Below are positions 18 through 1,953 of a DNA stretch of 31,064 nt, piece by piece; positions within the stretch are counted from its first letter, which is position 1, and every line of letters begins with the position of its first letter. Location of the stretch: the UHGV virus genome UHGV-0851987. One strand, written 5' to 3'. The position numbers and the translations under genes were made by a program. The notes beneath the pieces were generated by a model that saw only the letters and a program-made list of their open reading frames with translations, ran no database searches and had not been told where the DNA came from. The stretch comes from a virus.

Positions 18-986
18 TTAGTAGGTTATTTTTGTTGCGAATACTTCGCCTTTTACGATGGCTGTTATGATATTTTTAGCAACATCTTCTGATGCACCAA
101 CCTTGATAAGGTCAGCAAGTATTTTGTTATTTACTTCTTTCCGGTGAGCTTTATCCTTTGCTCTACGCTCTTCTTCGTCCTTGATTCTTTTTTCTTCTGC
201 TATTCTGGCTTGCTCTTTTGCTTCAGCCTCGCGCCGGATTCGTTCAGCCTCCTCCTGTGCTTTTCGGCGTTCTGCTTCAATTGCCGCCTGCTTTTCTCTT
301 TCAGCTCGTTCTGCTGCCTTTTTTGCTTCGCGCTGTGCTCGTTGCTCGGCTTCAATGCGTTCACGCTCTGCACGTTCCGCTGCTGCCTTAGCTTCTGCTT
401 CTCGCCTTGCTGCTGCTTCAATTTCGGCTTTTGCCTTTGCTTCGGCTTCTGCTCTGGCTTTCTCTTCAGCTTCTCTTTTTAAGCGTTCTTCATGCTCTCG
501 CTTTTCCTGCTCCGCTTTGAGTCTTGCCTCTTCTCTTTTGCGGTCAAATTCGCGATCCATCAAAATAGCTATTTCATGGTCAGACTCAATTTGCTTTGCG
601 AGAGCTTCAGCTGCTGCCTTAGCTTCTTCTTCGGCTTTAATCCGCGCCTGTTCTTCCTCATAATCAGTAAGAGGCTGGCGTGCCTTGGCTTTCAGCTCAT
701 CAAGGCGATCACGCACTGTCTTGCGGTTAGCATCAATTAGCTTTGGAATTTCCTTCAGTTCAGCAACAAGGTCTTTGCCAAGACCATCGAGATATGTTTT
801 CGTCTGCGCAACTTTATACGCCAGAGAAGCGATCTCCTTTCTGCCCTTTGCCGTTGTGATATCAGGCACAAAGGACATAACTTCACGTTCAACCTTTTGG
901 AGAATTTCTTCAATCTGGTCTGCAGACTGAAATACAGTCATTGCATTTGCTTTTTCAATAACAACTAAGTCTGTTACTTCACTCAT
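18..986 (-). CDS. Conserved phage early-left protein with long Glu/Ala/Lys/Arg-rich coiled-coil core; function unknown
   Basis: Long ORF in the supplied track (18..1082); start trimmed to the ATG at 984-986, which has a GGAGG RBS (complement of 991-995) 4 nt upstream. The globular N-terminus is followed by about 170 aa of EAKAKAEIEAAARREAE-type repeats. Opposite-strand ORFs across the repeat are artefacts. Confidence 0.7.
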   Translation of the reverse strand: MSEVTDLVVIEKANAMTVFQSADQIEEILQKVEREVMSFVPDITTAKGRKEIASLAYKVAQTKTYLDGLGKDLVAELKEIPKLIDANRKTVRDRLDELKAKARQPLTDYEEEQARIKAEEEAKAAAEALAKQIESDHEIAILMDREFDRKREEARLKAEQEKREHEERLKREAEEKARAEAEAKAKAEIEAAARREAEAKAAAERAERERIEAEQRAQREAKKAAERAEREKQAAIEAERRKAQEEAERIRREAEAKEQARIAEEKRIKDEEERRAKDKAHRKEVNNKILADLIKVGASEDVAKNIITAIVKGEVFATKITY

Positions 987-998
987 ATATCCTCCATC

Positions 999-1026
999 AA
1001 AAAAAATTGCCCTCACATCGGAGGGC
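999..1026 (-). terminator. Intrinsic terminator directly upstream of the RBS of gene 18..986
   Basis: On the minus strand: GCCCTC-N6-GAGGGC hairpin (1009-1026) followed by AA and an 8-nt U run (complement of 999-1006). The geometry matches a tL-type terminator inside an N-antiterminated operon. Confidence 0.55.
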
Positions 1027-1162
1027 GAAGAAGATTTCCAATAATCAGAACAAGTCGGCTCCTGTTTAGTTACGAGCGACATTGCTCCGTGTATTCACTC
1101 GTGGGAATGAATACACAGTGCAGTGTTTATTCTGTTGTTAGTGCCAAAAATAAAGGCCACCA

Positions 1163-1414
1163 TCAGGCAGCCTTGTTGTAAATGTTGCAGGTATCAAGTA
1201 AGTAATTAGATGGAGCGCCATAAATTATGAATTCATCGTTTGTCGGGTCCATCTCCATCTCTTGGCCTATTGCCATTCTTGCGTCAGTGTCATCAGCGGC
1301 GAAGCATAAAACAGCCCACGCTCCCATTGTTTTAAAAAGAACTGCAATTGGCTGTGGTTTTACTGAATTTGCGTTAGCGCGGAAATCATAAATCGCACTT
1401 TCATGAAATTCCAT
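1163..1414 (-). CDS. Hypothetical small early protein (83 aa), translationally coupled to N; occupies the position taken by ral in lambda
   Basis: ORF in track. The ATG lies 4 nt after the N stop codon, with GAGGGG overlapping the end of N. No family recognised with confidence. Confidence 0.6.
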   Translation of the reverse strand: MEFHESAIYDFRANANSVKPQPIAVLFKTMGAWAVLCFAADDTDARMAIGQEMEMDPTNDEFIIYGAPSNYLLDTCNIYNKAA

Positions 1415-1417
1415 AGA

Positions 1418-1750
1418 TCACCCCTCATACAGTGGTTTGCTGCCTAATTTCATTTTCTGGCGACCAACACAAGTCACACCCATTTCACTGCGTGGCTTGC
1501 TGTACCATGTGCGCTGATTCTTGCGCTCAATACGCTGCAGGTTGCTTTCAATCTGTTCGTGGTATTCAGCCAGCACTGTAAGGTCTATCGGATTCAGTGC
1601 GCTTTCTACTCGTGATTTCGGTTTGCGATTCAGCGAGAGAATAGGGCGGTTAACTGGTTTTGCGCTTACCCCAACCAACAGGGGATTTGCTGCTTTCCAT
1701 TGAGCCTGTTTCTCTGCGCGACGTTCGCGGCGGCGTGTTTGTGCATCCAT
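1418..1750 (-). CDS. N: Transcription antitermination protein N (lambda type)
   Basis: Translation from the internal Met begins MDAQTRRRERRAEKQAQWKAANPLL, the arginine-rich boxB-binding motif of lambda N. AGGAGA RBS upstream of the ATG at 1748-1750. The track ORF (to 1801) is an N-terminal over-extension. Confidence 0.9.
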   Translation of the reverse strand: MDAQTRRRERRAEKQAQWKAANPLLVGVSAKPVNRPILSLNRKPKSRVESALNPIDLTVLAEYHEQIESNLQRIERKNQRTWYSKPRSEMGVTCVGRQKMKLGSKPLYEG

Positions 1751-1922
1751 CTGGATTCTCCTGTCAGTTAGCTTTGGTGGTGTGGTAGGTGGGAGACCCA
1801 TTTCGACCTGCTTCGGCCGACTTCAATTCGGCAATAGTTCCGCAGGCCTCGCCGCTTTACGTGCGACATATTCCCATCCATGAACCCTTCACCACACCCC
1901 AAAGCCTTCTGCTTTGAATGCT

Positions 1923-1953
1923 GCCCTTCTTCAGGGCTTAATTTTTAAGAGCA
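1923..1953 (-). promoter_or_regulatory. nutL site (boxA plus boxB)
   Basis: Minus strand reads TGCTCTTAA (boxA, complement of 1945-1953), a spacer, then GCCCTGAAGAAGGGC (boxB hairpin, complement of 1923-1937). This matches the lambda nutL arrangement as I recall it. Confidence 0.8.

What the first reader, a model, noticed from the sequence alone, without database searches (positions are those of the whole stretch)
18..1130. Early-left protein with a 170-residue charged coiled-coil repeat, guarded by a terminator next to its RBS
The coding DNA between roughly 150 and 560 is a low-complexity GC-skewed repeat encoding E/A/K/R heptad-like repeats. It is flanked by a globular N-domain and a short C-terminal domain. 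A hairpin/U8 terminator ends only 3-4 nt before its Shine-Dalgarno, so synthesis should depend strictly on N antitermination. The architecture suggests a filament- or scaffold-like factor, possibly exclusion or host takeover, rather than an enzyme.
Basis: partly seen in the sequence, partly recalled or inferred. Interest (0 to 1): 0.5.

Follow-up and report, generated by a model that had tools for sequence, protein, structure and literature searches.

The report
Agt-like phage recombination-module helper protein
The gene is real and encodes a long, rod-like charged protein, but it is a common lambdoid-phage gene related to phage phi80's Agt (the "antidote" to its RecBCD inhibitor GamL), and the terminator in front of it is lambda's known tL2a, the end of the PreS small RNA.

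Summary
A 322-aa protein is encoded on the minus strand (986..21, stop 20..18). It has a conserved N-terminal helical domain, about 170 residues of E/A/K/R-rich helix, and a 40-aa C-terminal mini-domain. A hairpin plus U8 ends 3 nt before its Shine-Dalgarno.

Two points of interpretation change.
- The charged segment has no heptad hydrophobic seam. It has the signature of an ER/K single alpha-helix, not a canonical coiled coil.
- The terminator is not a dedicated guard. It is lambda tL2a, the 3' end of the Hfq-dependent sRNA PreS/LPR1, and other genes use the same slot.

The protein is Sf6 gene 33 (PHROG 1376, no Pfam family). NCBI's automated genome annotation (PGAP) mislabels it "TolA" in about 10% of complete E. 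coli genomes. It is 50% identical over its full length to phi80 Agt/Mog, annotated as the antitoxin or modifier of the RecBCD/SbcCD inhibitor GamL.

Homologs in Pseudomonas, Vibrio, Acinetobacter, Alcaligenes, Shewanella and enteric phages sit directly upstream of Erf, RecT, Bet or Sak4 recombination modules.

Best reading: a non-enzymatic adaptor of the phage recombination module. It is not an exclusion factor. It is a new member of a known but poorly understood family, of moderate interest.

The parts
18..986 (-). CDS of the Agt-like protein (322 aa; stop codon 20..18). It equals Sf6 gene 33 and mEp234_033.
   Evidence: for the ORF and its annotated equivalents. PHROG 1376 at E 6.8e-110. 50% identity over the full length to phi80 Agt, E 1e-64.
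642..986 (-). N-terminal conserved helical domain (aa 1-~115). Near-invariant residues across 117 family representatives include R49, G70, K78, R88 and E110.
   Evidence: for conservation. AF2 helices 12-20, 22-38 and 46-76, then the long helix. Substitutions among alleles: 39 synonymous against 10 nonsynonymous.
138..641 (-). Long charged helical spacer (aa 116-283). The ER/K-type core is aa 148-283 (nt 138-545). A conserved hydrophobic island, ESDHEIAILMDREFDR, lies at aa 134-149.
   Evidence: AF2 predicts one continuous helix 81-295, with pLDDT >90 over aa 120-220. Spacer length ranges from about 15 to about 330 aa among homologs.
21..137 (-). C-terminal mini-domain (aa 284-322). Family motif: H[RK]xx[IV]Nxx...G(L/I)xxxxAKxxxxAIAxGxIPxVxIxY.
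   Evidence: Weak profile hits to RuvA domain III (E 0.03-0.6) and a UBA domain (E 0.04). AF2 shows a helix, a turn, a helix and an extended tail.
375..632 (-). Direct repeats encoding AKAAAE (aa 122-127 and 199-204). They bound the in-frame 77-aa deletion seen in the 245-aa allele.
   Evidence: 27-nt repeat at 375-401 and 606-632, 93% identical.
991..995 (-). Shine-Dalgarno GGAGG, 4 nt before the ATG.
   Evidence: Conserved in 78 related loci.
999..1026 (-). Intrinsic terminator equal to lambda tL2a: stem-loop 1026..1009 plus AAU8 to 999.
   Evidence: Alignment with lambda and Sf6. Sf6 annotation 'tL2A'. mEp234 annotation.
999..1086 (-). Homolog of the Hfq-dependent sRNA PreS/LPR1 (about 88 nt in lambda). 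It differs from lambda at 4 positions, all in or beside the terminator hairpin.
1089..1116 (-). Conserved perfect hairpin upstream of the PreS body, identical in lambda and Sf6.
   Evidence: z-score -4.86 for the 132-nt region. Rfam gives only a chance mir-137 hit.
1153..1174 (-). Second intrinsic terminator, overlapping the stop codon of the 83-aa ORF.
1418..1753 (-). Lambda-type N antiterminator (MDAQTRRRERRAEKQAQW...).
   Evidence: PF11438, E 2.2e-26.
1923..1952 (-). nutL: boxA-like TGCTCTTA and boxB GCCCTGAAGAAGGGC.

Best explanation
The gene encodes a member of the phi80 Agt ('Mog') family (PHROG 1376). This is a non-enzymatic, rod-like accessory protein of the phage recombination (Rec) module.

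Shown:
- It is a full-length homolog of phi80 Agt.
- Its relatives are almost always the gene directly in front of the single-strand annealing protein gene (Erf, RecT/Bet or Sak4), with or without an exonuclease, SSB or RecBCD modifier.
- It consists of a conserved N-terminal helical head, a variable-length spacer and a small UBA/RuvA-III-like C-terminal module. Here the spacer is extreme: about 170 aa, of which the 136-aa core would span about 20 nm. It has the ER/K single-alpha-helix signature.

Inferred:
- The two end domains bind different partners, and the stiff charged helix sets their separation.
- Because the family travels with unrelated annealing proteins and with unrelated RecBCD modifiers (GamL in phi80, Abc2 in Sf6-like phages), the partner is more likely a conserved host component of DNA-end processing, or DNA itself, than a particular phage protein.
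- In line with phi80 genetics, its role would be to temper or redirect inhibition of host end-processing nucleases. Phage recombination would then proceed without poisoning the cell.

Expression (inferred): from pL by N-modified polymerase reading through two intrinsic terminators. The second is tL2a, which also forms the 3' end of the PreS sRNA. Termination there would yield the sRNA, and read-through would yield this protein followed by cIII, kil and the Rec genes.
For: - Identity: 50% over 322/322 aa to phi80 Agt, E 1e-64. GenBank calls Agt 'anti-toxin for Gam; Mog (modifier of Gam)' and calls gamL 'toxic without Mog'.
- Family matches: PHROG 1376, 17211 and 21365. All 117 diverse representatives hit PHROG 1376.
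- Family size: 5385 representatives at E<=1e-3 and 1012 at E<=1e-30.
- Synteny in distant phages:
  - phi80: agt-gamL-recT-exo.
  - D3 and JBD44: followed by erf, then exo.
  - Vibrio 1.036.O: followed by an exoVIII-like gene, an unknown gene and an OB-fold gene.
  - Acinetobacter TCUAN1 and Alcaligenes Piluca: followed by bet.
  - Shewanella 1/41: followed by recT after one gene.
  - Edwardsiella GF-2: followed by cIII and other genes, then a recombination protein.
- In 84 D3-type and Vibrio-type loci there are 39 distinct immediate-downstream proteins. 16 are ERF and 13 are RecT, with gaps of 7-8 nt or a 4-nt overlap.
- In 72 E. coli-type loci the downstream genes include cIII in 72, kil in 66 and Abc2 in 64. 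An Erf, RecT or Sak4-type annealing gene follows about 550-700 nt after the gene end.
- Architecture and ER/K signature.
- Modularity: P0013 combines the E. coli-type N-domain with the Klebsiella-type C-domain.
- Expression context.
Against: - No GamL homolog lies downstream in any of the 72 E. coli-type loci. The only genetically defined activity of the family therefore cannot be its role here as such.
- No direct biochemical data exist for any member. I could not read Rotman et al. 2012. What Agt does rests on the GenBank annotation and on my recollection of that paper's abstract.
- Fold searches give no informative match.
- The C-domain similarity to RuvA domain III/UBA is below significance.
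- An Ala stripe (periodicity about 3.7; a/d occupancy up to 0.75 if Ala is counted) leaves room for helix-helix pairing rather than a lone helix.
- The window ends at the gene's stop codon. Downstream context is inferred from near-identical loci.
Confidence: 0.6

Rival explanations
1. The protein is itself the DNA-end protector or anti-nuclease of the Rec module, a functional analog of Mu Gam or lambda Gam, rather than a modifier of one.
For: - In Firmicutes phages the slot upstream of erf-ssb or sak4 is filled by Mu Gam homologs, DUF2483, DUF1351 or gp157. The authors suggest these have analogous functions.
- D3, JBD44, Piluca and TCUAN1 have the Agt-like gene plus an annealing protein, with or without an exonuclease, and no annotated Gam.
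- The N-domain carries many conserved basic residues: R49, K63, K71, K78, R88, R92 and R103.
Against: - phi80 and the Sf6-like phages carry a separate RecBCD modifier next to it: GamL, or Abc2 in 64 of 72 loci.
- phi80 annotation makes Agt the antidote, not the inhibitor.
- No fold similarity to Gam, Mu Gam or Ku was found.
Confidence: 0.15
2. One reading: a filament- or scaffold-like factor for superinfection exclusion or host takeover, unrelated to recombination.
For: - The protein has an elongated, non-enzymatic architecture.
- The early-left region of lambdoid phages does hold exclusion and host-modifying genes such as sieB, ral, kil and cIII.
- The slot after tL2a is a variable hot spot.
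Against: - It shows conserved, often translationally coupled linkage to annealing-protein genes across distant hosts. Accessory exclusion genes do not usually keep such synteny.
- It is homologous to phi80 Agt.
- There is no PADLOC hit beyond a compositional LmuB match at E 0.025.
- There is no transmembrane segment.
Confidence: 0.08
3. The C-terminal module mimics RuvA domain III. It tethers or blocks host RuvB, so the protein couples the phage annealing machinery to, or shields it from, branch migration.
For: - The C-domain profile hits seven RuvA domain III sequences (best E 0.03) and a UBA domain (E 0.04). The alignment runs over the helix-Gly-helix core.
- The Rec-module context fits a Holliday-junction link.
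Against: - E-values are above significance, and the RuvA hits are not independent of each other.
- The pattern L..L...G.....A is generic for UBA-like and HhH-like hairpins.
- There is no structural confirmation.
Confidence: 0.07
4. It is a TolA-like cell-envelope protein, as NCBI's automated genome annotation (PGAP) and pharokka label it.
For: - Automated names 'cell envelope biogenesis protein TolA' or 'TolA' appear in many records.
- The Ala/Glu/Lys-rich helix resembles TolA domain II in composition.
Against: - There is no N-terminal membrane anchor (maximum Kyte-Doolittle 19-residue mean 1.03).
- There is no Pfam or NCBIfam TolA domain.
- There is no PDB TolA hit.
- The gene context is phage early-left and recombination.
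Confidence: 0.02

Closest known systems
Phage phi80 (Lula) Agt / Mog, 'anti-toxin for Gam' (PHI80_40; Rotman et al. 2012, J Bacteriol 194:6802)
   Same: - Same length (322 aa) and same three-part architecture.
- 50% identity end to end, with about 75% in part of the charged helix.
- Same operon (pL, after N) and same position at the head of the Rec module.
   Different: - phi80 Agt is followed directly by gamL-recT-exo.
- Relatives of the window gene are followed by cIII-kil, small ORFs, Erf, Sak4 or RecT, SSB and Abc2. None has GamL.
- Antidote activity has not been tested for this protein.
Shigella phage Sf6 gene 33 / mEp234_033 / IME10 Orf53 / Pseudomonas D3 orf53 (PHROG 1376, unknown function)
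   Same: - Sf6 and mEp234 genes are 97-98% identical in DNA, including the tL2a-SD junction.
- D3 orf53 shares the N-domain at about 55% identity.
   Different: Nothing of substance. These are the same gene, annotated as hypothetical. D3-type proteins are 354 aa and abut erf or recT directly.
ER/K single alpha-helix (SAH) domains (myosin VI/X, caldesmon, MAP4K4; own knowledge of Sivaramakrishnan/Spudich and Peckham/Knight work)
   Same: - About 90% E/K/R/A/Q.
- Twofold excess of i,i+4 opposite-charge pairs.
- No hydrophobic seam, and no Pro or Gly over aa 106-295.
- AF2 predicts one uninterrupted helix.
   Different: - Richer in Ala than classic ER/K motifs.
- Monomeric state is untested.
- Other family members have more hydrophobic spacers (0.17-0.25 bulky residues).
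TolA domain II
   Same: Long Ala/Lys/Glu-rich helix, which is the reason for the automated name.
   Different: No membrane anchor, no TolA domain III, and a phage recombination context.
DUF1351 (PF07083), Sipho_Gp157, DUF2483 and Mu Gam in Firmicutes phage Rec modules
   Same: They occupy the analogous position next to erf, recT or sak4 and ssb. DUF1351 proteins are of similar size (about 330 aa).
   Different: - No detectable homology. Pfam gives no hit for any of 117 family members.
- hhalign probability is below 1% against an MM1 ORF10 profile.
Lambda ea10 and the tL2a/PreS (LPR1) element
   Same: - The gene sits in the lambda ea10 slot, between tL2a and cIII.
- The upstream ~150 nt are almost identical to lambda.
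- PreS is a described Hfq sRNA ending at tL2a.
   Different: Ea10 is unrelated in sequence. In some phages it is present together with this gene, in the order PreS-ea10-agt-like-cIII.

Membership tests
phi80 Agt family / PHROG 1376 | Full-length sequence homology to Agt and to the family profile | tested here: met
   BLASTP gives 50% identity over 322 aa, E 1e-64. PHROG 1376 E 6.8e-110. The profile search recovers the family.
phi80 Agt family / PHROG 1376 | Three-part architecture: conserved N-domain, charged helical spacer, C-terminal H[RK]..N...G...AK...AIA.G.IP.V.I.Y module | tested here: met
   106 of 117 representatives end in [IVLMF]x[YF].
phi80 Agt family / PHROG 1376 | Location in the early-left operon at the head of the recombination module | tested here: met
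   The window is cut at the stop codon. In 72 near-identical loci, cIII, kil, Erf/RecT/Sak4-type annealing genes, SSB and Abc2 follow. The same holds in Sf6 and mEp234.
phi80 Agt family / PHROG 1376 | Adjacent gamL, with relief of GamL toxicity | tested here: not met
   GamL is absent from 72 of 72 related loci. The activity itself cannot be tested with these tools.
Canonical coiled coil | Heptad repeat with hydrophobic a/d positions | tested here: not met
   No 3.5-residue periodicity. Bulky a/d occupancy is 0.12-0.25 across aa 155-266.
ER/K single alpha-helix | High E/K/R content, dense i,i+4 E-K/R pairs, few hydrophobic residues, no helix breakers | tested here: met
   52 pairs against 25.8 +/- 3.8 in shuffles, and no Pro or Gly over aa 106-295.
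ER/K single alpha-helix | Stable monomeric helix in solution | not testable with these tools
   Needs CD, AUC or SAXS. The AF2 monomer model shows a single helix 81-295.
TolA | N-terminal transmembrane anchor and C-terminal TolA domain III | tested here: not met
   Maximum KD19 is 1.03. No Pfam or NCBIfam TolA model is hit.
DUF1351 (PF07083) | Match to the Pfam model or profile-profile homology | tested here: not met
   0 of 117 members hit PF07083. hhalign probability is below 1%. The DUF1351 profile was shallow (members >=78% identical).
Lambda tL2a / PreS (LPR1) sRNA element (for the terminator) | Sequence identity with the lambda ral-ea10 intergenic region, ending in a GC hairpin plus U tract | tested here: met
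   Alignment.
Lambda tL2a / PreS (LPR1) sRNA element (for the terminator) | Hfq binding, expression and regulation of dnaN/alaS | not testable with these tools
   Shown for lambda only.
UBA-like / RuvA domain III (C-terminal module) | Significant sequence or fold match | tested here: inconclusive

The most novel reading that the evidence does not exclude
The Agt family is an unrecognised, near-universal fifth component of Rec modules in phages of Proteobacteria. In this reading it is a two-headed adaptor, and its ER/K single-helix 'ruler' (about 15 to about 330 residues in different phages) sets the distance or effective concentration between two partners. One partner would be bound by the basic N-domain, for example a host end-processing nuclease or DNA. 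The other would be bound by the UBA/RuvA-III-like C-domain, for example RuvB or another repair factor. That would explain how phages blunt RecBCD/SbcCD without killing the host.
Probability: 0.25. Interest if true: 0.6.

Novelty: new member of a known kind. Interest (0 to 1): 0.38.

Why it matters
- **Scale of the gap.** The family has no Pfam entry, no structure and no mechanism. It is nevertheless present in about 10% of complete E. coli genomes and in more than 1000 clusters at 50% identity.
- **Link to recombination.** It is tied to phage recombination modules across Gamma- and Betaproteobacteria. A 2025 survey of lambdoid Rec modules does not mention it.
- **Possible payoff.** Knowing what it does would explain how temperate phages tolerate their own RecBCD/SbcCD inhibitors. 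It could also improve recombineering systems.
- **Annotation.** The 'TolA' label is wrong and should be replaced.
- **Regulation.** The same terminator makes the PreS sRNA and gates this gene, cIII, kil and the Rec genes. This gives a simple, testable switch between sRNA production and read-through.

Tried and rejected
- **Family libraries.** Pfam, NCBIfam and PADLOC scans of the protein gave nothing, or only compositional hits (DIP1281, TraG, LmuB). A PDB sequence search gave only low-complexity matches.
- **Rfam.** Only a chance mir-137 hit on the conserved hairpin. There is no model for PreS.
- **DUF1351 homology.** Tested with MM1 ORF10 and a 13-sequence profile, and rejected. The profile was shallow, so a very remote link is not excluded.
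- **The 354-aa ORF from ATG 1082.** Rejected. It reads through the sRNA and terminator, has no SD, and homologs start at MSEV.
- **Plus-strand ORFs 144-482 and 181-663.** These are low-complexity artefacts of the antisense strand.
- **An antiparallel dimer in which the N-domain of one chain meets the C-domain of the other.** Considered, but N- and C-domain types recombine independently (P0013), and no multimer prediction was possible.
- **Rotman et al. 2012.** The paper is not in the held library. Further literature searches found no other study of the family.
Full report
**What is there**

The window is an Sf6-like (P22-like) lambdoid phage. It is 95% identical to Sf6 over 78% of its first 25 kb.

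The finding's interval holds a minus-strand gene. The mechanical ORF runs 18..1082, but the real start is the ATG at 986..984, behind GGAGG at 995..991. Every homolog begins MSE(V/I)TDL. The upstream extension would read through a conserved sRNA and terminator. The product is 322 aa, 36.8 kDa, pI 5.8, with no transmembrane segment.

**The charged region**

- Residues 148-283 (nt 138-545) are at least 90% E/K/R/A/Q and at most 10% bulky hydrophobic.
- It is not a heptad coiled coil. There are 8 bulky hydrophobic residues in 136 and no 3.5-residue periodicity. Best-register a/d occupancy is 0.12-0.25.
- Oppositely charged i,i+4 pairs are twice as frequent as in shuffles: 52 against 25.8 +/- 3.8. 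There is no Pro or Gly over aa 106-295.
- AlphaFold2 models one uninterrupted helix from 81 to 295, with pLDDT above 90 over aa 120-220.
- This is the signature of ER/K single alpha-helices (own knowledge of that literature). An Ala stripe, with periodicity about 3.7, leaves some room for helix pairing.
- At the DNA level there is no real tandem array, only a few 16-27-nt direct repeats. One pair encodes AKAAAE at aa 122 and aa 199. It bounds the in-frame 77-aa deletion that produces the common 245-aa allele.

**Is it translated?**

Yes.
- 77 of 80 IMG/VR loci with the same N-domain keep a 322-aa frame.
- Among 70 distinct alleles, the N-domain shows 39 synonymous against 10 nonsynonymous changes. 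The charged region shows 41 against 40, with third-position bias.
- The flanking domains are conserved in frame across very distant homologs.

**The terminator**

- The hairpin at 1026..1009 plus AAU8 ends at 999, 3 nt before the SD.
- It is not particular to this gene. The 150 nt upstream of the SD are almost identical to lambda's ral-ea10 intergenic region. Sf6 annotates the hairpin as tL2A.
- In lambda this region encodes the Hfq-dependent sRNA LPR1/PreS. Its 3' end is tL2a, and it up-regulates dnaN during lytic growth (bioRxiv 10.1101/2024.10.31.621285).
- The window's copy differs from lambda at 4 positions, all in or beside the hairpin.
- In 11 of 78 related loci a different gene follows the same 'U-tract GA(C/T) GGAGGATAT ATG' joint, and the Agt-like gene comes after it. 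That gene is lambda ea10 or another small ORF.
- The terminator therefore belongs to the upstream PreS module. The site behind it is a mosaic insertion slot.

**Expression**

The window has:
- a lambda-type N;
- nutL with boxB identical to lambda;
- a pL-like promoter;
- a second terminator at 1174..1153.

No promoter-like site lies between the terminators and the gene. Dependence on N antitermination is thus a sound inference from lambda biology. It is not shown here.

**What the protein is**

- It is Sf6 gene 33 and mEp234_033. It belongs to PHROG 1376, of unknown function.
- It has no Pfam, NCBIfam, PADLOC or PDB relative.
- About 10% of complete E. coli genomes carry it (530 of 5426). PGAP usually names it 'cell envelope biogenesis protein TolA'. 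That label rests on composition only.
- The informative relative is phage phi80 (Lula) Agt, 50% identical over the whole 322 aa. GenBank describes Agt as 'anti-toxin for Gam; Mog (modifier of Gam)'. The next gene, gamL, is described as 'host RecBCD/SbcCD enzymes inhibitor; toxic without Mog', and is followed by recT and exo.
- As I recall the abstract of Rotman et al. 2012 (J Bacteriol 194:6802), gamL was unclonable alone and agt nearby was its antidote. I could not open that paper here.

**Family and context**

A profile of the N-domain finds 5385 cluster representatives, 1012 of them at E<=1e-30. All 117 inspected share the plan of N-domain, charged helix and C-terminal module. The spacer is typically 106-327 aa, with a median of about 180. 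Individual enteric variants have spacers as short as about 15-45 aa.

| Phage(s) | Gene order after the Agt-like gene |
|---|---|
| phi80 | gamL, recT, exo |
| Pseudomonas D3 and JBD44 | erf, exo |
| Vibrio 1.036.O | exoVIII-like, unknown, OB-fold |
| Acinetobacter TCUAN1, Alcaligenes Piluca | bet |
| Shewanella 1/41 | one gene, then recT |
| Edwardsiella GF-2, E. coli types | cIII, kil, small ORFs, then Erf, RecT or Sak4, SSB |

- In 84 D3-type and Vibrio-type loci there are 39 distinct proteins encoded immediately downstream, with a gap of 7-8 nt or a 4-nt overlap. 16 are ERF and 13 are RecT.
- In 72 E. coli-type loci, Abc2 is present in 64 and GamL in none.
- The family therefore travels with any annealing-protein family and with unrelated RecBCD modifiers.
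- A 2025 survey of lambdoid Rec modules does not discuss it.
- In Firmicutes phages the equivalent slot holds Mu Gam, DUF2483, DUF1351 or gp157. I tested DUF1351 and found no homology.

**Domains**

- The N-domain is helical, with many invariant basic residues.
- The C-terminal 45 residues give weak profile hits to RuvA domain III (E 0.03-0.6) and to a UBA domain. This suggests a UBA-like protein-binding hairpin, but it is not significant.
- Fold searches were uninformative.
- N- and C-domain types recombine independently (P0013). This argues that they bind different partners rather than each other.

**Mechanism proposed**

Shown: the protein is a homolog of Agt, it is linked to Rec modules, it has an elongated two-headed architecture, and it lies downstream of tL2a/PreS.

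Inferred:
- It is an adaptor whose stiff charged helix spaces two binding modules.
- It acts on a conserved host DNA-end-processing factor, or on DNA, to temper or direct the phage's interference with RecBCD/SbcCD.
- It is made only when N-modified polymerase reads through tL2a. Termination at tL2a instead would yield the PreS sRNA.

Rivals are listed separately: that it is itself a Gam-like end protector, that it is a RuvB-binding mimic, that it is an exclusion scaffold, and that it is TolA-like.

**Verdict**

It is wrong on the coiled coil, the dedicated terminator and exclusion.
- The gene is a new member of a known but barely characterised family. Interest is moderate.

Noticed in passing
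window 999-1086 (-): Homolog of the lambda Hfq-dependent sRNA PreS/LPR1, ending at tL2a. It is nearly identical to lambda. Rfam 15 has no model for it.
   Followed up: partly
window 1089-1116 (-): A perfect 12-bp hairpin (GUGUAUUCAUUC...GAGUGAAUACAC) lies just upstream of the PreS body and is identical in lambda and Sf6. The 132-nt region folds with a z-score of -4.86. Its function is unknown; it might be a processing site or part of the precursor.
   Followed up: no
window 1163-1414 (-) and 1153-1174 (-): An 83-aa ORF of unknown function (PHROG 2471, similar to VT2-Sakai Sap20) lies between N and PreS, where lambda has ral and sieB. Its stop codon lies inside a second intrinsic terminator.
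   Followed up: no
L017, L047, L068, L073, L087 (ea10) and L020-L023, L025, L044 (other ORF), about 400 nt upstream of the gene: The site right after the tL2a U-tract is a mosaic hot spot. Lambda ea10, or an unrelated ~100-aa ORF (MKLRVWHIPQVPMKPF...), can be inserted using the same SD-ATG joint, with the Agt-like gene following.
   Followed up: partly
window 540-587 (-), aa 134-149: A conserved hydrophobic island, E(S/A)DHE(I/M)A(I/L)LM(D/N)xxFDR, sits inside the charged helix. It is shared with phi80, Klebsiella and a Rhodospirillales homolog, duplicated in some Klebsiella proteins, and deleted in the 245-aa allele. It may be a partner-binding patch.
   Followed up: no
E. coli RefSeq genomes (e.g. 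NZ_CP146585.1 2242321-2243331): PGAP names this phage protein 'cell envelope biogenesis protein TolA' across hundreds of genomes. This is a systematic misannotation caused by low-complexity similarity.
   Followed up: yes
mEp234 (L002 6351-7481; not in the window): The closest phage for this segment, mEp234, carries a hicA-hicB-'hicC' three-gene cassette between cI and pL. The window has a different immunity region.
   Followed up: no
window 144-482 (+) and 181-663 (+): Long antisense ORFs (112 and 160 aa, rich in Phe, Ser, Cys and Leu) are artefacts of the low-complexity coding strand and should not be annotated.
   Followed up: yes
L094-L173 (Pseudomonas D3-type loci): Among Agt-like N-domains that are at least 88% identical, the abutting annealing protein switches between the ERF and RecT families. 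This is a sharp mosaic joint directly at the gene's stop codon.
   Followed up: partly
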